A stretch of DNA of 42,329 nt from a virus: the UHGV virus genome UHGV-1357302. One strand, given 5' to 3'. The notes beneath the pieces are model-generated. The model was not told the origin of the DNA, searched no databases, and saw only the letters and a list, made by a program, of their open reading frames with translations. The position numbers and the translations under genes were made by a program. Positions 37 to 41,277 of this stretch are shown piece after piece (positions within the stretch are counted from its first letter, which is position 1; each line of letters begins with the position of its first letter).

Positions 37-567
37 ATGGCTAATGAAGCAAAGGTAGCGGCTAAAGGTATTGATATTATTTTACTTTTCCGTTTGCTAA
101 AAAAATCAAAAGAGGAAGCAGCATGGAAATTAGCTTTCCAGACAGAACATGAAAATACAAAAACAAAAGATAGTGACTCCGTGGCCACTAAAGATGGTCC
201 GATTCGTATCCCAGGATCATTGGAAATTGATTTTTCAGCAACATCTATTTTATCAGTCGGTGATCCGTATGTTGATCAACTAGAAGAAGCTTTAGACAAT
301 GACGATATTATTGAAATTTGGGAAATCAACAAAGCAGAAAAAGGCACAGGAGATAATGCTGACAAATACAAGGCAACCTATTACCAAGGATATGTAACAT
401 CATTTGGTAAATCGCCTAATGCTGAAGACACCGTAGAAGTTTCATTAGAATTTGGTATCAATGGTAAAGGTGCAAAAGGATTTGCAACATTAACTGCTGA
501 TCAAGAAGAAGTAGTTCAATATGTCTTCAAAGATACGACTATTGAAACAGCTGATCCGGGAAAGTAG
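37..567 (+). CDS. phage major tail protein (zero-frame product)
   Basis: 176-aa ORF with GAAGGA RBS 7 nt upstream of the ATG. It sits directly after the head-tail joining genes (by wrap-around) and before the Ig-like ORF, the G/GT chaperone pair and the tape measure, which is the canonical siphovirus position. Composition is typical of phi13/TP901-1-type major tail proteins (recall, not searched). Confidence 0.7.
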   Translation: MANEAKVAAKGIDIILLFRLLKKSKEEAAWKLAFQTEHENTKTKDSDSVATKDGPIRIPGSLEIDFSATSILSVGDPYVDQLEEALDNDDIIEIWEINKAEKGTGDNADKYKATYYQGYVTSFGKSPNAEDTVEVSLEFGINGKGAKGFATLTADQEEVVQYVFKDTTIETADPGK

Positions 568-629
568 ATAGCCCTTCTGTGGGAAGTGTAACTCCTACAG
601 TCGATGGGGCTTCTATTGAATTAAGCTAA
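558..629 (+). other. putative -1 programmed frameshift site (G GGA AAG, 558-564) plus 21-codon -1-frame extension (564-629) of the major tail protein
   Basis: The slippery X XXY YYZ heptamer spans the last two sense codons (GGA AAG) just before the TAG stop at 565-567. The -1 frame then reads VDSPSVGSVTPTVDGASIELS and stops at TAA 627-629. The extension is paralogous to the one after the major capsid gene at 40868-40933. Confidence 0.45.
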
Positions 630-644
630 GAAAGGAAAATAAAT

Positions 645-1103
645 ATGGTGAATACTTTTAAAATTTATAAAGGCCAAACCGAAGTTGTTTCCGGCACATC
701 ACCTTTAACTATAACAGGAATGGAACCTAACACCTCTGTGCCAGTTGGTGAGTACCAAGTAACTCGTGTTGTTAATGGGAAAGAATCAGAGCGAGTAGAT
801 ATTCCAGCTTTTAAAACATTGTCTATTGCTGTAACTGGCTTAGAGTTTTCTCCTAAAACATCAACAGCAGATGCGGGTACTGCAGGTAGCCGACAAATCA
901 CAGCAACTGTCTTGCCTGAAAATGCAACCAACAAAAAAGTAACCTATAAGATTACGCCTGAAACAGAAGGTCTTGCTGTCTCTGAAACAGGAAATATTAC
1001 TTGGACAGAAGCGGTACCGGCTGGTGTTTATACTACAACAGGAACAACAGAGGAAGGTAAAAAAACAGCTCAACACACCTTAACATTGAATAATCAAGCT
1101 TAA
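645..1103 (+). CDS. Ig-like (Big_2-type) domain protein, probable tail or capsid decoration
   Basis: 152 aa with its own RBS (AAAGGAAAATAAATATG). The segment ITATVLPENATNKKVTYKITPE...GNITWTEAVPAG fits the bacterial Ig-like group 2 consensus. It lies in the same frame as the major-tail -1 extension, separated from it by a single TAA. Confidence 0.6.
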   Translation: MVNTFKIYKGQTEVVSGTSPLTITGMEPNTSVPVGEYQVTRVVNGKESERVDIPAFKTLSIAVTGLEFSPKTSTADAGTAGSRQITATVLPENATNKKVTYKITPETEGLAVSETGNITWTEAVPAGVYTTTGTTEEGKKTAQHTLTLNNQA

Positions 1104-1158: not shown

Positions 1159-1509
1159 ATGCAAATCGAAATTAAAGGAAAAAAATATAACTGTATTTTT
1201 GGAGTCAAGTTTATTCGTGAATTGGATAAGCAGCATGGGGTAGTTCGCAATGATGTAAATCTTGGGATGGGACTAACAACATTATTACCGCAGCTAGTAA
1301 GTGGAAATATCGTTGTTTTATCTGATGTACTCTACACAGCTACCATTACGGAAAAAAGTAGACCTTCTAAGGATGAAGTAGATGAGTTCGTTGAAACTGT
1401 GGATGATATTGAGGCATTATTTGATGAAACGTTGAAATACTTAGAAGAAAGCAATGCGGGAAAGTTAACGGTCAGAAATTTCAAGAAAGCTCTGATGGAG
1501 AACAAGTAA
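1159..1509 (+). CDS. tail assembly chaperone (gpG-like)
   Basis: 116-aa ORF between the major tail protein and the tape measure, with RBS GGAGGAAAAGGCATG. It contains the slippery heptamer G GGA AAG at 1458-1464. Confidence 0.6.
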   Translation: MQIEIKGKKYNCIFGVKFIRELDKQHGVVRNDVNLGMGLTTLLPQLVSGNIVVLSDVLYTATITEKSRPSKDEVDEFVETVDDIEALFDETLKYLEESNAGKLTVRNFKKALMENK

Positions 1510-8432: not shown

Positions 8433-10391
8433 ATGGCTATCGAGCAAATTAAAGAAACCGACACACTGAATCAAGGTCGAATTAAAATTAATGCGATTTT
8501 GGATCAATCAAATGCTTCATCTGAAAAAGTAGATGCGTATCAAGAAGAATTAAAAAACGGCGTTGATGATGCGAAGAAAATAGCTGATACCGCTGGTAAA
8601 GAGGCAATCAAAGTTGCTGAAGAAGCAGGAGCTCAAGCAAATGCAACGGCGAACCAAGCGATGGATAATGCTAATACGGCAATTACGATTGCAGGAAATG
8701 CAGTTTCAACGGCAAATAATAATAAACAAGAATTCGATGCTCTAAGAAATGATTTTGACAAGTTGGTCGGTGAAGCAGGTGATAGTAACCCTGAAATCGT
8801 ACAAGCTAGAACAGATACTCAAGGAGTAACGCAACCGACATTAGCGACTCGATTACTGGTTGATTTTAACGATCGTATGACTAAATCGGAAGGTGTATCA
8901 TTATTGTCAGGAACAACAAATGTAAAAATTTCTATGGATTTTTCTGGGAAAACGGCAGGTAATACAGCAACTAATGCGCATCAATATTTTACGGATGTAA
9001 CTGCTAAATCGCTAAAAAAACCAAAAGATATATGGAATGAAGTTTCTCAAGCAGAATACAATAAATTAGTAAGCCGTGATGATTCTGGAGTAAGTAGTGG
9101 TTCAACACAAACTGGAGTTATCCCACAACAGTTAGGTTCATTCAATGCTTTAGAAGCTGCAAAAAAATTAATTCCTCAAATTTTCGAAGGATTAAATCAA
9201 GAAGAAGCGGTATCTTTATTAAAAGATAGCTTTGTAGCGTTCACTATTAGCGAACGTGCTAAAGCAACTTCGCCAAACAACAAAACAATTAAAGTTTCTA
9301 CTTACATTGAGTCAACAGATTCATGGGCAACTCAAATCCAAGAAAGCGCTGGAGAGTATAAAGATATATCAGCGCAAATAACAGACAAAAATTTCATTAC
9401 TAGCGAAGGGGTTATATATCTAATTAATTATACAGATCCATCGAATGGAGTAACAACAGCTAATTTAGATATAGACTATTCAGCTATTCAATTAGAAATT
9501 AGTGTTAATGTTCAAGACGTTTTAGAAAAAAGTGGGTTTGTTAAATCAAAACAATTAAATGATCATGTAGACGATAAAGAAAATCCACATCAAGTGACAG
9601 CTGAGCAAGTGGGAGCATATAGCAAGACTGATTCTACTGATCTATTTATTAACAAAACTGAAGCAGAAAATGGATTGTTTGTTGCTAAAAAAACAGTTGT
9701 TAACTCGCAAGATTGGGATAAAATTCTAGATGCAGGTATTTACACCGTTTTTGGAGCTTCTGGAGCAAACAGACCTTATTCGGGTGCAGCTTATGGTGCT
9801 TTAGTTGTTTATGCTGATAATACATTTGTAAGTCAAACGTATATGTATAAAGGTGAAACATACACCCGTAGTCGTCAAGGCAGTCCAGCGACTTGGACAC
9901 CATGGAATAAAATGCTTGTGGAAAAAGAACAACCTTTTGAAGCTTGGTATTCACCAGGAACTAATCATCCTGGATTCAAAAATAAGGCAAGATACAATTT
10001 AGGGCCAGAATTTAGCAACGTAGGCCAGCGACTGGGGTTACCTATGAAAAGCAATCCATTAGAATGGAATAGTGGACGGTGGCAAGCAAAAGTGCTTAGA
10101 GACTGCAAGCTAAATGTAAGCGGAACTGTAAAATATCAAGTTGGCGGTTCGAGAGGAGTTCTATATGCTTATACTCATATTGACAAAGGACTTGATGAAG
10201 GTGTAGGTGACTTAGGTATTGGATCAGCAGTCGGAGCTGTTGGCGGTTTGAATTATCAAAATGTCGCAGCCTTTGACTTAAACGTCACACTAAAAAAAGG
10301 CGAGTATTTTGCGTTTCGTTTAGAATTAGCAGCAGATAAGCAACTTGATAATACGCAACTTTCTTCTATGCATATTACAGAATTAGTATAG
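8433..10391 (+). CDS. tail fibre / receptor-binding (upper baseplate-like) protein
   Basis: 652 aa from the ATG at 8433 (RBS AGGAGTGA; the track's earlier start is a GTG). The N-terminus is Ala/Asn-rich coiled coil and the C-terminus is a divergent globular domain. It is the last structural gene before the holin. Confidence 0.55.
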   Translation: MAIEQIKETDTLNQGRIKINAILDQSNASSEKVDAYQEELKNGVDDAKKIADTAGKEAIKVAEEAGAQANATANQAMDNANTAITIAGNAVSTANNNKQEFDALRNDFDKLVGEAGDSNPEIVQARTDTQGVTQPTLATRLLVDFNDRMTKSEGVSLLSGTTNVKISMDFSGKTAGNTATNAHQYFTDVTAKSLKKPKDIWNEVSQAEYNKLVSRDDSGVSSGSTQTGVIPQQLGSFNALEAAKKLIPQIFEGLNQEEAVSLLKDSFVAFTISERAKATSPNNKTIKVSTYIESTDSWATQIQESAGEYKDISAQITDKNFITSEGVIYLINYTDPSNGVTTANLDIDYSAIQLEISVNVQDVLEKSGFVKSKQLNDHVDDKENPHQVTAEQVGAYSKTDSTDLFINKTEAENGLFVAKKTVVNSQDWDKILDAGIYTVFGASGANRPYSGAAYGALVVYADNTFVSQTYMYKGETYTRSRQGSPATWTPWNKMLVEKEQPFEAWYSPGTNHPGFKNKARYNLGPEFSNVGQRLGLPMKSNPLEWNSGRWQAKVLRDCKLNVSGTVKYQVGGSRGVLYAYTHIDKGLDEGVGDLGIGSAVGAVGGLNYQNVAAFDLNVTLKKGEYFAFRLELAADKQLDNTQLSSMHITELV

Positions 10392-12667: not shown

Positions 12668-12741
12668 GGACCATTAGCTCAGTTGGTTAGAGCAAACGGC
12701 TCATAACCGTTCGGTCGATGGTTCGAATCCGTCATGGTCCA
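12668..12741 (+). tRNA. tRNA with CAU anticodon, elongator type (tRNA-Ile2(LAU)-like or tRNA-Met)
   Basis: Cloverleaf folded by hand. Acceptor stem GGACCAT/ATGGTCC with discriminator A. D-stem GCTC/GAGC. Anticodon stem AACGG/CCGTT with loop CTCATAA. Variable loop 5 nt. T-stem GATGG/CCGTC with loop TTCGAAT. No encoded CCA. The G1:C72 pair excludes an initiator. The anticodon stem-loop GGCUCAUAACCG and the C4/C5 acceptor bases resemble Firmicutes tRNA-Ile2. Confidence 0.8.
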
Positions 12742-19771: not shown

Positions 19772-19922
19772 ACGATGAATGAAATCGAAAAAAAGAGCCT
19801 ACCTCGTTTGCAGACGAAGTCAGGCACTAAACAAAAATTATACAAGTAAATAATAACACGGAAATAGAGAAAGTTAAATGGCAATGTCACATTGTCTAGT
19901 TTCTCAGAAGGAGAGTGAAAAT

Positions 19923-39493: not shown

Positions 39494-39835
39494 ATGGTTT
39501 ATGTAAAGAAAACTCAAACATATCAAGATATTAATTTTTTAAAGAGCGAAAAATTCATTTCATTTACAAAACAAGTTGATGAAACAACTGAAGGGGTAGA
39601 AAAAGGAGTGCTACCTGCAGGGTCAGTGTTCCCTAAAAATGATGCTACAGCAGAAGGTATTACAATTAATGATGTTGATGTATCAAATGGACCACAACCA
39701 GTGGGCGTAATTGTTGAAGGGCATGTTCTTATTAAACGATTACCAGTTGAGCCATCATCGGAAGCTCAAAAAGCAATGCGTGAAGTTAAATTTTATGATG
39801 CAAACGGTAAAATGCTAGCAGTTCCAACTGCTTAA
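39494..39835 (+). CDS. hypothetical head protein (113 aa) between the scaffold and the major capsid protein
   Basis: RBS GGAGGAATTTTGAATG. Decoration or auxiliary capsid protein by position only. Confidence 0.4.
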   Translation: MVYVKKTQTYQDINFLKSEKFISFTKQVDETTEGVEKGVLPAGSVFPKNDATAEGITINDVDVSNGPQPVGVIVEGHVLIKRLPVEPSSEAQKAMREVKFYDANGKMLAVPTA

Positions 39836-39857: not shown

Positions 39858-40871
39858 ATGGCAAATATTGCAGAATTATTTTCACAGAAAAATGTATTAG
39901 ATTATGTAAATAATCGTCAAGCACCAGTTTTATTAGGAGAAACATTGTTTCCAGCACGTAAGGTACAGGGGTTAGAGTTTGATGTTTTAAAAGCGGGATC
40001 TAAAATCCCAACAATTGCAAGCGTTCATGCGTTCGATACAGAAGCTGAGATTGCTTCACGTGTTGGATCGAAAACAGCTCAAGAGTTAGCGTTCATCAAA
40101 CGTAAAATTCAATTAAAAGAAAAAGATTTAATGGCCTTACGCAAGCCTCGTGATGCAGCAGAACAACGTTTCTTAGAACAAGAAGTGTACAACGATGTAG
40201 ATGCAATGGTTGGATCTGTAAATGCGCGTGTTGAAAAGATGCGAATGGAAGTATTAGCAAATGGAACAGTTACATTAGACGAAAATGGTTTAGATTTAGT
40301 AGTTGATTACGGCGTACCAAAAGAACATCAAGCTACAGCTGACTTTACTGCACCTGAAACAGATGTTATTGGGCTATTGACTGAATGGGCAAGCGCTTTG
40401 GATACTACGCCTACTCGTATCTTAACATCTACAAAAGTACGCAACGCGATTCTTCAAAACACTGGGATTAAAGCATATTTTAAAGATGCAGGATTATTGC
40501 CAACAATCGGCTCTTTAAATCAAATGTTCCAACAGTTTGGATTGCCAACGCTTGTAACTTATGATGCGAAATACAACAAAGAAAATGAAAAGGGCGTATT
40601 AGTAAAAGAACGTTATTTCCCAGAAAACAAGCTAGTCATGTTTGGTGATGAAAACCCAGGAGAGTCTATTTTCGGTGTAACACCAGAAGAATCTCGTTTG
40701 TTATCAACTGGATCAAATAACTACACAGTAGGCAATATTTTCGCAATGGTATACGAATCTAATTTAGACCCAGTTGGAACATGGACTAAAGCATCAGGAA
40801 CAGCTCTACCAAGTTTCCCAGAAGCTGACAATGTATTCCAAGCTACTGTCTTACCTGATTCAAAAAAATAG
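39858..40871 (+). CDS. major capsid protein (zero-frame product)
   Basis: 337 aa with RBS AGGAGGATTTCAAATG, following the scaffold. Ends in ...LPDSKK with the A7 run before TAG. Confidence 0.8.
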   Translation: MANIAELFSQKNVLDYVNNRQAPVLLGETLFPARKVQGLEFDVLKAGSKIPTIASVHAFDTEAEIASRVGSKTAQELAFIKRKIQLKEKDLMALRKPRDAAEQRFLEQEVYNDVDAMVGSVNARVEKMRMEVLANGTVTLDENGLDLVVDYGVPKEHQATADFTAPETDVIGLLTEWASALDTTPTRILTSTKVRNAILQNTGIKAYFKDAGLLPTIGSLNQMFQQFGLPTLVTYDAKYNKENEKGVLVKERYFPENKLVMFGDENPGESIFGVTPEESRLLSTGSNNYTVGNIFAMVYESNLDPVGTWTKASGTALPSFPEADNVFQATVLPDSKK

Positions 40872-40933
40872 AAGCCCCGAAAGTTGAAAGTGTAACACCA
40901 ACAACTGACGGGGCCTCAATCGTATTAAGTTAG
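40862..40933 (+). other. putative -1 programmed frameshift site (A AAA AAA, 40862-40868) plus 21-codon -1-frame extension (40868-40933) of the major capsid protein
   Basis: The -1 frame reads IEAPKVESVTPTTDGASIVLS then stops at TAG 40931-33. It is paralogous to the tail-protein extension (SVTPT(V/T)DGASI(E/V)LS), and most nucleotide differences are synonymous in this frame. Confidence 0.45.
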
Positions 40934-40944
40934 GTGGTGTTTAA

Positions 40945-41277
40945 ATGCCTAGCATTACAGAGGACATAACAAAACTGTTAAATAGTCCAGCTAATGAAAA
41001 GTTAGAAGTGATTGAGCGACGAACTCGAGAACGTCTCAATAGTTTGTTAAATGTATCGGAAACACCAAGCAAATTTGATTCGATTATATACGAGGTCGTT
41101 TTAAAAAGATTTAACCGGATTGGTCAAGAGGGTATGATTTCATATTCTCAAGAAGGTTTAACAATGGCCTTTCCTGATTCTGATTTCTCTGAATATGAAA
41201 AACAAATTAACGATTATTTGAATGAAGAAAAAGAAGTGCAATATAAAAAACTTCGTGGAAAGGCCCGATTCGTATGA
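40945..41277 (+). CDS. head-tail connector (gp6-like adaptor)
   Basis: 110 aa immediately after the capsid gene. Typical position and size. Confidence 0.5.
   Translation: MPSITEDITKLLNSPANEKLEVIERRTRERLNSLLNVSETPSKFDSIIYEVVLKRFNRIGQEGMISYSQEGLTMAFPDSDFSEYEKQINDYLNEEKEVQYKKLRGKARFV

What the first reader, a model, noticed from the sequence alone, without database searches (positions are those of the whole stretch)
40862..40933. Major capsid protein gene shows the same architecture: an A7 slippery run at the stop codon and a paralogous -1-frame tag under purifying selection
TCA AAA AAA TAG gives an A AAA AAA heptamer. The -1 frame reads IEAPKVESVTPTTDGASIVLS then TAG. Across the 16 shared codons, the capsid and tail extensions differ at 9 codons. 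Seven of those differ only at synonymous third positions (act/aca, cct/cca, gat/gac, gct/gcc, tct/tca, att/atc, agc/agt). Only two are amino-acid changes (V/T, E/V). That pattern is expected only if this frame is translated and the peptide is conserved, even though it lies 3' of the annotated stops of two different genes. A shared C-terminal tag on sub-stoichiometric capsid and tail subunits suggests a common docking peptide, for example for the Ig-like protein at 645-1103, or a vestigial first strand of an Ig-like domain.
Basis: seen in the sequence. Interest (0 to 1): 0.8.

Follow-up and report, generated by a model that had tools for sequence, protein, structure and literature searches.

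The report
Split-domain docking tag on capsid and tail
A 21-residue peptide, reached by ribosomal frameshifting at the ends of both the capsid and the tail-tube genes of this Enterococcus phage, is the missing first two strands of a fibronectin-type domain whose remainder is a separate virion protein, so it most likely acts as a plug that lets one Ig-like decoration protein dock on head and tail.

Summary
The capsid gene (39858-40871) ends TCA AAA AAA TAG. Its -1 frame reads IEAPKVESVTPTTDGASIVLS and stops at 40931-40933. The tail-tube gene (37-567) ends G GGA AAG TAG, and its -1 frame gives a paralogous 21-residue peptide. The codon counts were slightly off (8 synonymous, 3 non-synonymous), but the pattern holds (dN/dS 0.18).

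Comparison shows the peptide is what is conserved. It is reached by -1 shifts in Enterococcus and Bacillaceae prophages and by +1 shifts in Staphylococcus phages. In phiEf11 and others it is fused in frame. It sits on two unrelated capsid families, on tail-tube proteins and on a small head protein.

Tags occur only where a homologue of ORF 645-1103 is present (47 loci with both, 74 with neither). That protein starts at strand C of an FN3-like domain. Unsplit homologues carry tag and N-domain as one contiguous domain, so the tag supplies strands A and B.

Docking by fold complementation is inferred, not shown: AlphaFold2 did not place the tag. I rate it a new variant of frameshift-appended Ig-like decoration, and found no prior description.

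The parts
39858..40871 (+). Major capsid protein gene, lambda gpE-like, 337 aa. The zero-frame product ends ...LPDSKK.
   Evidence: ORF list. Pfam PF03864 Phage_cap_E, E = 7.8e-38. 91% nucleotide identity to the phiEf11 major head protein.
40862..40868 (+). -1 slippery heptamer A AAA AAA, in X XXY YYZ register with the capsid frame and directly followed by the zero-frame stop TAG (40869-40871).
   Evidence: Sequence. Identical in 9 related contigs. Capsid genes at 52-55% identity keep TCA AAA TAG at the same place.
40868..40933 (+). Capsid tag: -1 frame codons IEAPKVESVTPTTDGASIVLS plus stop TAG. The stop overlaps the Shine-Dalgarno sequence (AGGTGGTG) of the head-tail connector gene at 40945.
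   Evidence: Tag HMM score 35.0.
40871..40917 (+). Predicted two-tier stem-loop. The main outer stem GCCCCG (40874-40879) pairs with CGGGGC (40909-40914), and the inner stem is AGUUG/CAACU. The main stem starts 5 nt after the heptamer. It is the likely frameshift stimulator.
   Evidence: RNA fold: -21.5 kcal/mol, z = -2.3. Equivalent hairpins occur in the tail copy, EFC-1 and phiSLT. The Gly codon in the stem is GGG in 49 of 60 frameshift-dependent tags.
37..567 (+). Major tail (tube) protein gene, 176 aa.
   Evidence: Pfam PF06199 Phage_tail_2, E = 7.4e-18. In phiEf11 it is annotated as a 197-aa protein because the tag is in frame there.
558..564 (+). -1 slippery heptamer G GGA AAG, in register and followed by the stop TAG at 565-567. 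The same heptamer serves the tail-chaperone G/GT frameshift at 1458-1464.
564..629 (+). Tail tag: -1 frame codons VDSPSVGSVTPTVDGASIELS plus stop TAA.
   Evidence: Tag HMM score 38.8.
565..615 (+). Predicted two-tier stem-loop downstream of the tail heptamer. The outer stem is AGCCCU/GGGGCU and the inner stem is CUGUGGGA/UCCUACAG.
   Evidence: RNA fold: -22.3 kcal/mol, z = -2.6.
645..1103 (+). Proposed partner protein, 152 aa. Residues 1 to about 58 are an FN3-like domain that begins at strand C (strands A and B are missing). Residues about 60-148 are a Big_2 Ig-like domain. It has its own ribosome-binding site and starts 15 nt after the tail tag's stop codon (18 nt after the last sense codon).
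   Evidence: Homologues all start at the same point. AlphaFold2 with an alignment gives pLDDT about 90 for this N-domain. The top Foldseek hits are FN3 domains. A profile of this family matches a solved Big_2-like domain at E = 1.5e-15. A staphylococcal homologue is a separate virion protein.

Best explanation
The window is a temperate Enterococcus faecalis siphophage close to phiEf11.

A minority of ribosomes finishing the capsid gene slip -1 on A AAA AAA (40862-40868), with the stop codon next in the A site and a hairpin 5 nt downstream. A minority finishing the tail-tube gene slip -1 on G GGA AAG (558-564) in the same kind of context. Each event adds the same kind of 21-residue peptide, giving capsid protein of 337+21 aa and tail-tube protein of 176+21 aa.

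This peptide is the first two beta-strands (A and B) of an FN3-like domain that has been split at its B-C loop. The rest of that domain (strands C-G), followed by a Big_2 Ig-like domain, is made separately from ORF 645-1103.

The truncated domain binds the tag by completing its own fold. One Ig-like decoration protein is thereby anchored non-covalently to a frameshift-determined fraction of head and tail subunits, probably to aid adhesion to cell-surface carbohydrates.

Shown here: the sequence features, their conservation, selection on the peptide, strict co-occurrence with the ORF family, and homology of tag plus ORF N-domain to contiguous domains.

Inferred: that frameshifting actually occurs here and how often, that the two pieces physically complement each other, and the adhesion role.
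For: Translation and selection.
- The tag is in frame with the tail-tube gene in phiEf11-type phages and in L151, through independent 1-nt insertions. It is also in frame in L043/L044, Staphylococcus phage 187 and L226.
- It is in the -1 frame behind the slippery sites G GGG GAG, G GGA AAG/A/C, A AAA AAA, A AAA AAG and C CCA AAA in Enterococcus, Oceanobacillus, Siminovitchia, Bacillus and Atopostipes prophages.
- It is in the +1 frame behind UUA CCC NNN UAA or CCC UAA in Staphylococcus phages.
- It sits on two unrelated capsid families and, in L041, on a 119-aa head protein.
- dN/dS between the window's two copies is 0.18 with dS 1.5.
- Across 67 distinct tags, entropy by codon position is 0.89, 0.85 and 1.65.

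Frameshift signals.
- Both heptamers are in register and followed directly by the stop.
- Hairpins start 5 nt downstream, with z from -2.3 to -3.3.
- The same heptamer serves the conserved G/GT site at 1458-1464.

The partner.
- Among 124 loci fetched through capsid or tail-tube homology, 47 have both tags and the ORF and 74 have neither. The only 3 discordant loci are truncated contigs.
- In 14 of 14 prophages from several genera, a tag ends 12-36 nt before the ORF.

The split domain.
- 178 of 190 family members start directly at the N-domain.
- phmmer of tag+linker+N-domain found contiguous homologues that align across the junction: P0122 (query 3-85, E = 2e-21), P0134, P0135, P0163 and P0151.
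- P0122 itself has one truncated copy followed by two complete copies.
- Foldseek hits to the N-domain are almost all FN3 domains, including anastellin, an FN3 fragment lacking strands A and B.

Virion evidence.
- The staphylococcal homologue is seen in intact virions at its exact unfused mass (PMC5923470).
- The two tags within one phage resemble each other more than tags of other phages (0.58 vs 0.45, permutation P = 2e-4).
Against: - AlphaFold2 of the fused tag-linker-N-domain left the tag disordered (pLDDT 47-49, no strands), although the N-domain itself was confident. This test is therefore uninformative rather than negative.
- Pfam FN3-type hits on fused sequences are all below threshold.
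- hhalign against four eukaryotic FN3 domains matched only the E-F-G region, at 33% probability.
- There are no proteomic data for this phage. The MALDI table for the staphylococcal phages lists only the unshifted tail-tube mass.
- The tail tag and the ORF are adjacent, so part of their co-occurrence is simple linkage. Many loci are near-identical phages, so the counts overstate independence.
- On the A7 run, transcriptional slippage (insertion of one A) would give the same protein.
Confidence: 0.7

Rival explanations
1. The tag is translated and selected, but it works independently of ORF 645-1103. It might be an assembly or spacing signal, or a short adhesin in its own right, while the Ig-like protein joins the virion through some other contact.
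For: AlphaFold2 did not dock the tag onto the N-domain. Part of the tag-ORF co-occurrence could be linkage, because the ORF is always adjacent to one tag.
Against: The second tag lies 1.5-2.7 kb away, on unrelated carrier genes, and still never occurs without the ORF family. Tag plus N-domain form one contiguous domain in the unsplit homologues. A domain lacking two of its seven strands is unlikely to be stable alone. The Kayvirus proteins form a tag-to-truncated-domain series.
Confidence: 0.12
2. For the capsid gene, the long isoform arises by transcriptional slippage on the A7 run (insertion of one A) rather than by ribosomal -1 frameshifting.
For: An mRNA with A8 would encode exactly ...SKK-IEAPK... 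(from the sequence). G5 runs at other tags could behave in the same way.
Against: Runs of 5-7 bases are short for efficient polymerase slippage (general knowledge). The tail site G GGA AAG is not a homopolymer run. A hairpin at the canonical 5-nt spacing is conserved. Distant capsid genes keep only A AAA plus a stop. The phage uses the same heptamer at the G/GT site.
Confidence: 0.1
3. The conservation reflects RNA or regulatory function only, such as a hairpin, translational coupling or the ribosome-binding site of the next gene. On this view the peptide is incidental or never made.
For: A stable hairpin overlaps the tag. The tag's stop overlaps the next gene's Shine-Dalgarno sequence. The GGG codon bias suggests selection at the RNA level.
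Against: In-frame tags with different codons keep the peptide motif. -1 and +1 versions have unrelated nucleotide contexts but a related peptide. Third-position variability and dN/dS well below 1 hold only in the tag frame, and the other frames contain stops.
Confidence: 0.04
4. The tags are decaying remnants of an ancestral frameshift-appended full Ig/FN3 domain and no longer have a function.
For: Full-length frameshift-appended FN3 or Ig-like domains exist in other phages, for example SPP1 gp17.1* and Listeria A118.
Against: The same split, at the same loop, is conserved across Enterococcus, Bacillaceae, Staphylococcus and other hosts, with intact slippery sites and exact tag length. Purifying selection is measurable.
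Confidence: 0.03

Closest known systems
Bacillus phage SPP1 tail-tube proteins gp17.1 and gp17.1* (frameshift-appended FN3 domain)
   Same: A recoding event at the very end of the tail-tube gene puts an FN3-type module on a fraction of subunits, about 1 in 4 in SPP1. The module is dispensable and is proposed to bind cell-wall carbohydrate (PMC8718954).
   Different: In SPP1 the whole FN3 domain is appended covalently. Here only strands A and B (21 aa) are appended, the remainder is a separate protein, and the same tag is also on the capsid protein.
Listeria phages PSA, A118 and A500: long capsid and tail-shaft isoforms (Cps-L, Tsh-L) made by +1 or -1 frameshifting
   Same: Both the capsid and the tail-tube genes of one phage are recoded at their 3' ends, including shifts next to the stop codon. 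The products were verified by peptide fingerprinting (PMC5009743).
   Different: The Listeria extensions are unrelated to this tag. My tag and N-domain HMMs found nothing in PSA or A118. In PSA the capsid and tail extensions differ from each other, and A118 Tsh reads into a whole Ig-like ORF.
Phage lambda G/GT tail-chaperone -1 frameshift
   Same: It uses the same heptamer, G GGA AAG. This phage has the canonical G/GT site at 1458-1464.
   Different: G/GT products are assembly chaperones that are absent from virions. The tags sit on structural proteins and lie directly at the stop codon.
Donor-strand complementation in chaperone-usher pili
   Same: An Ig-like fold lacking part of its sheet is completed by a strand supplied by another polypeptide. 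Head-to-tail chains are possible, as suggested here by Kayvirus ORF059, ORF080 and ORF189 and by the 85-92 aa proteins that carry a truncated domain plus a C-terminal tag.
   Different: Pilins lack the C-terminal G strand and receive one N-terminal strand. Here the two N-terminal strands are missing and are supplied by a C-terminal tag. There is no homology, and complementation is not shown here.
Anastellin (a fibronectin 1FN3 fragment lacking strands A and B) and engineered split Ig-like pairs such as SpyTag/SpyCatcher
   Same: Anastellin is an FN3 domain without strands A and B. It appears among the Foldseek hits to the N-domain (1q38). The tag-plus-catcher logic matches SpyTag/SpyCatcher.
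   Different: Anastellin is an artificial or proteolytic fragment. SpyTag forms a covalent isopeptide bond, whereas the staphylococcal homologue is found in virions at its unmodified mass, which argues for non-covalent binding.
Ig-like capsid decoration proteins with a dedicated anchoring domain (T4 Hoc, T5 pb10)
   Same: A separate protein displays Ig-like domains on the virion surface.
   Different: Hoc and pb10 bind capsomer surfaces through their own folded binding domain. They do not bind a recoded tag, and they decorate heads only.

Membership tests
Programmed -1 ribosomal frameshift site | Slippery heptamer X XXY YYZ in register with the zero frame | tested here: met
   A AAA AAA at 40862-40868 and G GGA AAG at 558-564 are both in register. 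Equivalent heptamers occur in relatives.
Programmed -1 ribosomal frameshift site | Stimulatory RNA structure 5-9 nt downstream | tested here: met
   Predicted two-tier hairpins start 5 nt after each heptamer: -21.5 and -22.3 kcal/mol, z = -2.3 and -2.6. Similar hairpins occur in EFC-1 (z = -3.0) and phiSLT (z = -3.3). These are predictions only.
Programmed -1 ribosomal frameshift site | Two protein products detected from one gene | not testable with these tools
   There are no proteomic data for this phage. Indirect support comes from in-frame natural variants.
Frameshift-appended Ig-like or FN3 C-terminal domains on capsid or tail proteins (Fraser et al. 2006 class; SPP1 gp17.1*) | Recoding at the 3' end of a major capsid or tail gene | tested here: met
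Frameshift-appended Ig-like or FN3 C-terminal domains on capsid or tail proteins (Fraser et al. 2006 class; SPP1 gp17.1*) | The extension encodes a complete Ig-like domain of about 80-100 aa | tested here: not met
   The extension is 21 aa, ends at a conserved stop, and corresponds only to strands A and B. The system therefore works like this class but is not a plain member of it.
FN3 fold (Pfam PF00041 and relatives) | Significant match to an FN3 profile over the whole domain | tested here: inconclusive
   All Pfam hits are below threshold (E = 0.02-0.14). The ORF part aligns from profile position about 29-39, and some hits cross the junction from position 2-12. hhalign gives 33% probability over strands E-G only. 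The top Foldseek hits are almost all FN3 domains, but at E = 0.09-1.
Split domain (tag plus ORF N-domain forming one ancestral domain) | Homologues in which the two parts are contiguous and align across the junction | tested here: met
   P0122 (query 3-85, E = 2e-21), P0134, P0135, P0163 and P0151. Alignment A5. The tag HMM hits directly upstream of N-domain hits in P0134, P0135 and P0151.
Split domain (tag plus ORF N-domain forming one ancestral domain) | Physical complementation of the two polypeptides | tested here: inconclusive
   AlphaFold2 on the fusion left the tag at pLDDT 47-49.
Big_2 bacterial Ig-like domain (PF02368) | Profile match in ORF 645-1103, residues about 60-148 | tested here: met
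   The window protein scores 19.2 bits against a cut-off of 22.8. The family profile matches a solved Big_2-like domain (7quz) at E = 1.5e-15, and many homologues carry a precomputed PF02368 hit.
Covalent tag/catcher pairs (isopeptide, SpyTag-like) | Covalent bond between tag and partner | tested here: not met
   In Staphylococcus phages 3A, 42E and 47 the homologue is detected at its exact free mass, 15,855 vs 15,857 Da (PMC5923470). This is indirect, coming from a different phage.
Lambda gpE-like major capsid protein (PF03864) | Profile match over the full length | tested here: met
   E = 7.8e-38, residues 11-331.

The most novel reading that the evidence does not exclude
Many phages of Bacillota carry a natural, non-covalent tag-and-catcher system built from a split FN3 domain. 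The group includes the therapeutic Staphylococcus Kayviruses and the E. faecalis phiEf11/EFC-1 group. A roughly 20-residue tag (strands A and B) is placed on any virion protein by a -1 shift, a +1 shift or in-frame fusion, and it recruits proteins that begin with the strand C-G remainder. Proteins that carry both a truncated domain and a C-terminal tag would assemble head to tail into chains, as in Kayvirus ORF059, ORF080 and ORF189 and the 85-92 aa proteins. This would resemble donor-strand complementation in pili. It would be a new principle of virion decoration, with stoichiometry set by recoding efficiency.
Probability: 0.55. Interest if true: 0.85.

Novelty: new variant of a known kind. 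Interest (0 to 1): 0.78.

Why it matters
Frameshift-appended Ig-like domains on phage heads and tails have been known since about 2003-2006. In every described case the whole domain is appended.

Here the domain is split. Recoding adds only a 21-residue plug, and the socket-bearing Ig-like protein is supplied in trans to both head and tail.

If this is confirmed, three things follow.
- It explains short, unannotated post-stop reading frames in hundreds of phage genomes.
- It corrects a widespread misannotation: the partner is labelled 'major tail protein' (phrog_341).
- It gives a natural peptide tag for displaying cargo on Enterococcus and Staphylococcus phages, at a density tunable through the slippery site.

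It also offers a clean system for studying how a frameshift signal and a protein-coding constraint share the same 63 nucleotides.

Tried and rejected
- **AlphaFold2, single sequence.** The tag+ORF fusion gave pLDDT 39 and was uninformative.
- **AlphaFold2, unpaired alignment.** The rerun with 107 ORF homologues folded the N-domain (pLDDT about 90) but not the tag. Docking is therefore not shown.
- **Pfam on fused sequences.** Only sub-threshold beta-sandwich hits were found.
- **hhalign against FN3 domains.** Only a local match over strands E-G appeared, at 33% probability.
- **PDB sequence search.** Only the Big_2 part has solved relatives.
- **Stop-codon readthrough from tail tag into ORF 645.** Rejected. 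The two are in the same frame in this window, but in other phages the frame differs and the ORF has its own start and ribosome-binding site.
- **Same system as Listeria PSA/A118.** Rejected. There are no tag or N-domain hits, and the extensions are unrelated.
- **Rfam.** No known frameshift element was found in the window.
- **Literature.** Nine full-text searches and several papers gave no description of a split domain or shared tag. Dorscht et al. 2009 was not available.
Full report
**Identity of the window.** The window is a temperate Enterococcus faecalis siphophage. Its capsid-to-connector region is 91% identical to phiEf11. Its tail-tube region is 95-98% identical to phiEf11, EFC-1 and IME197. 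The capsid protein (39858-40871) is lambda gpE-like (PF03864, E = 7.8e-38). The tail-tube protein (37-567) is Phage_tail_2 (PF06199).

**Observation.** The sequence is as described.
- The capsid gene ends TCA AAA AAA TAG. That gives an in-register A AAA AAA heptamer (40862-40868) directly before the stop (40869-40871).
- The -1 frame from 40868 reads IEAPKVESVTPTTDGASIVLS and stops at 40931-40933.
- The tail-tube gene ends CCG GGA AAG TAG. Its heptamer G GGA AAG lies at 558-564.
- Its -1 frame reads VDSPSVGSVTPTVDGASIELS, with the stop at 627-629.
- Both extensions are exactly 21 codons and align without gaps. They share 42 of 63 nucleotides and 14 of 21 residues.
- Over 21 codons, 5 are identical, 9 synonymous and 7 non-synonymous.
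- Over the last 16 codons, 8 are synonymous and 3 non-synonymous.
- Twelve of the 21 nucleotide differences are at third positions (P = 0.006). dN is 0.27, dS is 1.51 and the ratio is 0.18.
- The other two frames are closed by stops in both copies.
- Only these two copies exist in the window.

**The peptide, not the nucleotide context, is conserved.**
- In phiEf11-type phages and in contig L151, independent 1-nt insertions place the tag in frame with the tail-tube gene. phiEf11 has also lost the slippery motif.
- EFC-1 and IME197 have an unrelated 310-aa capsid protein. Its gene ends GCG GGG GAG TAA, and its -1 frame reads VTSPVVGKVTPTTNGATIELT.
- Capsid genes only 52-55% identical keep TCA AAA TAG. 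They carry a longer -1 ORF that ends in the same motif.
- In L041 the tag follows a 119-aa head protein, the homologue of window 39494-39835, instead of the capsid gene.
- In Staphylococcus phages phiSLT and 187 a related tag lies in the +1 frame, behind UUA CCC AGC/UCG UAA. In phage 187 the tail-tube copy is in frame.
- A census of about 100 loci gave -1, +1 and in-frame versions. In-frame tags were seen only on tail-tube-sized carriers or on ORF-family proteins, never on capsid-sized ones.
- Across 67 distinct tag DNAs, entropy by codon position is 0.89, 0.85 and 1.65, and the median pairwise dN/dS is 0.39.

**Frameshift signals.**
- Each window tag folds into a two-tier hairpin whose main stem starts 5 nt after the heptamer: -21.5 and -22.3 kcal/mol, z = -2.3 and -2.6.
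- EFC-1 (z = -3.0) and phiSLT (z = -3.3) have equivalents.
- The outer stem, GCCCC/GGGGC, is built from the (S/A)-P and D-G-A codons.
- The glycine codon is GGG in 49 of 60 frameshift-dependent tags but in only 3 of 7 in-frame tags. The 63 nucleotides therefore appear to carry both a protein constraint and an RNA constraint.
- The same heptamer, G GGA AAG, serves the canonical tail-chaperone G/GT frameshift at 1458-1464, whose -1 frame is open to 1859.

**What the tag is.**
- ORF 645-1103 starts 15 nt after the tail tag's stop codon.
- Its homologues number 166 significant hits and 493 phage records, mostly Staphylococcus and Enterococcus. All begin at the same point, M.FKIYKG...SPLTITGL.PNT...GEYQ...ES.RVDIPAFKT. 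None extends over the tag.
- 178 of 190 family members start directly at this N-domain.
- With an alignment, AlphaFold2 folds this N-domain confidently (pLDDT about 90).
- Its best Foldseek matches are almost all FN3 domains, aligned over about 60-68 columns. They include anastellin, an FN3 fragment without strands A and B. E-values are weak (0.09-1).
- Sub-threshold Pfam matches place the ORF's first residue at position about 29-39 of FN3-type profiles 84-93 positions long.

*The decisive result.* I ran phmmer of tail tag + linker + N-domain against 1.84 billion representative proteins.
- Most hits cover only the N-domain and start at residue 1-4 of the hit.
- Five proteins carry both parts as one contiguous domain aligned across the junction. 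They are P0122 (query 3-85, E = 2e-21), P0134, P0135, P0163 and P0151.
- In them the sequence reads, for example, PPTVESVTPTDTTASIEM-NSGNGITGS-TMILY... (alignment A5).
- The tag is therefore strands A and B, and the split lies in the B-C loop.
- P0122 has one truncated copy followed by two complete copies. It is itself preceded by a tail-tube gene with an in-frame tag.

**Link between tags and the partner.**
- Among 124 loci retrieved through capsid or tail-tube homology, that is, not through the ORF, 47 have tags and the ORF and 74 have neither.
- The only 3 discordant loci are contigs that end before the ORF. Many of these loci are near-identical phages, so the count overstates independence.
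- In 14 of 14 prophages from Enterococcus, Oceanobacillus, Siminovitchia, Bacillus, Atopostipes and Lacticaseibacillus, a tag ends just upstream of the ORF. A second tag lies about 2 kb upstream or 2.4-2.7 kb downstream; the second tag is marginal in L141.
- The ORF may follow the capsid gene or the tail-tube gene, and its frame relative to the tag varies. This excludes stop-codon readthrough.
- The two tags of one phage are more alike than tags of different phages (0.58 vs 0.45, P = 2e-4).
- In Staphylococcus phages 3A, 42E and 47, the homologous 'Ig-like domain' protein is detected in intact virions at its exact free mass (PMC5923470). It is thus a separate, non-covalently held virion component.

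**Mechanism proposed.**
- A fraction of ribosomes shift -1 at each heptamer and add the tag.
- The 645-1103 protein completes its FN3-like domain with the tag and so displays its Big_2 domain on head and tail.
- Occupancy is set by frameshift efficiency.
- Shown: the sequence features, selection on the peptide, co-occurrence with the ORF family, and homology to unsplit domains.
- Inferred: the frameshift itself, physical complementation, and the adhesive role. The adhesive role rests on analogy with SPP1 gp17.1* and other phage Ig-like domains.

**What did not work.**
- AlphaFold2 left the tag disordered in the fusion (pLDDT 47-49).
- Pfam and hhalign do not reach significance for FN3 over the tag.
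- No solved structure contains the N-domain.

**Comparison with what is known.**
- Recoding that appends Ig-like or FN3 domains to capsid and tail proteins is established in SPP1, in Listeria PSA, A118 and A500, in Lactobacillus A2 and in T3.
- The Listeria extensions are unrelated to this tag.
- The new element is the split. Only two strands are appended, the same tag is used on head and tail, and the rest of the domain is supplied in trans.
- Nine literature searches found no description of this.

**Verdict.**
- Novelty: a new variant of a known kind.
- Confidence in the full mechanism is about 0.7. Confidence that the tag is translated and selected is about 0.9.

Noticed in passing
window 1458-1464 (with ORFs 1159-1509 and 1602-1859): This is the canonical tail-assembly-chaperone G/GT -1 frameshift. 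G GGA AAG is in register with ORF 1159-1509, and the -1 frame is open to 1859. It is the same heptamer as at the tail-tube gene end. Only 3 GGGAAAG occur in the window, and the third (777) is out of register.
   Followed up: yes
L001 6493-6623 (phiEf11); L151 3876-4006: Two independent 1-nt insertions just upstream of the slip site put the tail tag in frame, so every tail-tube subunit carries it. phiEf11 has also lost the slippery heptamer (CCA GAA AAA). In-frame tags were never seen on capsid-sized carriers.
   Followed up: yes
L143 5355-6764 (Staphylococcus Kayvirus G1, ORF059, ORF080, ORF189): Three adjacent virion proteins look like a chain of split-FN3 joints. ORF059 ends in a tag. ORF080 is a truncated FN3 plus an Ig domain plus a C-terminal tag. 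ORF189 (7.8 kDa) is a truncated FN3 only. All three were detected in K/812 virions by MALDI (PMC5923470).
   Followed up: partly
L043 6531-6809; L044 6586-6864; proteins P0142, P0176, P0192, P0200: Small 85-92 aa proteins consist of a truncated FN3 followed, after a linker of about 5 residues, by a C-terminal tag. The linker looks too short for self-complementation, so these proteins may polymerise head to tail.
   Followed up: partly
L041 848-1269 (homologue of window 39494-39835): In this phage the head-side tag sits on a 119-aa head protein (phrog_909) rather than on the capsid protein. It is reached by -1 at G GGG GAG TAA. The window's own 113-aa homologue has no tag.
   Followed up: partly
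L013-L042 (capsid genes 83-91% identical to the window): These close capsid relatives end ...VLAEG* and have no tag, a different downstream gene, no tail tag and no Ig-like ORF. The mosaic joint lies at the very 3' end of the capsid gene.
   Followed up: partly
window 645-1103: RefSeq and PHROGs (phrog_341) label this protein 'major tail protein'. It is an Ig-like accessory protein, and the true tube protein is 37-567. The label is probably an annotation error that has been propagated.
   Followed up: partly
BFVD hits to model m24c1246e2074: The truncated FN3 module is also found by fold search inside large Kayvirus proteins: a 697-aa beta-N-acetylhexosaminidase, a 616-aa lipase/acylhydrolase and a 1268-aa beta-helix protein. 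It also makes up whole small proteins (Enterococcus phage Aramis 58 aa, Staphylococcus phage Remus 70 aa). Its position within the enzymes was not checked.
   Followed up: no
L133/L211 about 9890-9985: Here the tag lies in the +1 frame of the upstream 312-aa ORF, although a GGGAAAC motif is present. This could be an assembly indel or a -2/+1 event.
   Followed up: no
window 12668-12741 (+) and 19789-19842 (-): There is a tRNA gene (Rfam, 70 bits) inside the window. There is also a borderline match to Enterococcus sRNA Ref55 (43.6 bits against a gathering score of 43).
   Followed up: no
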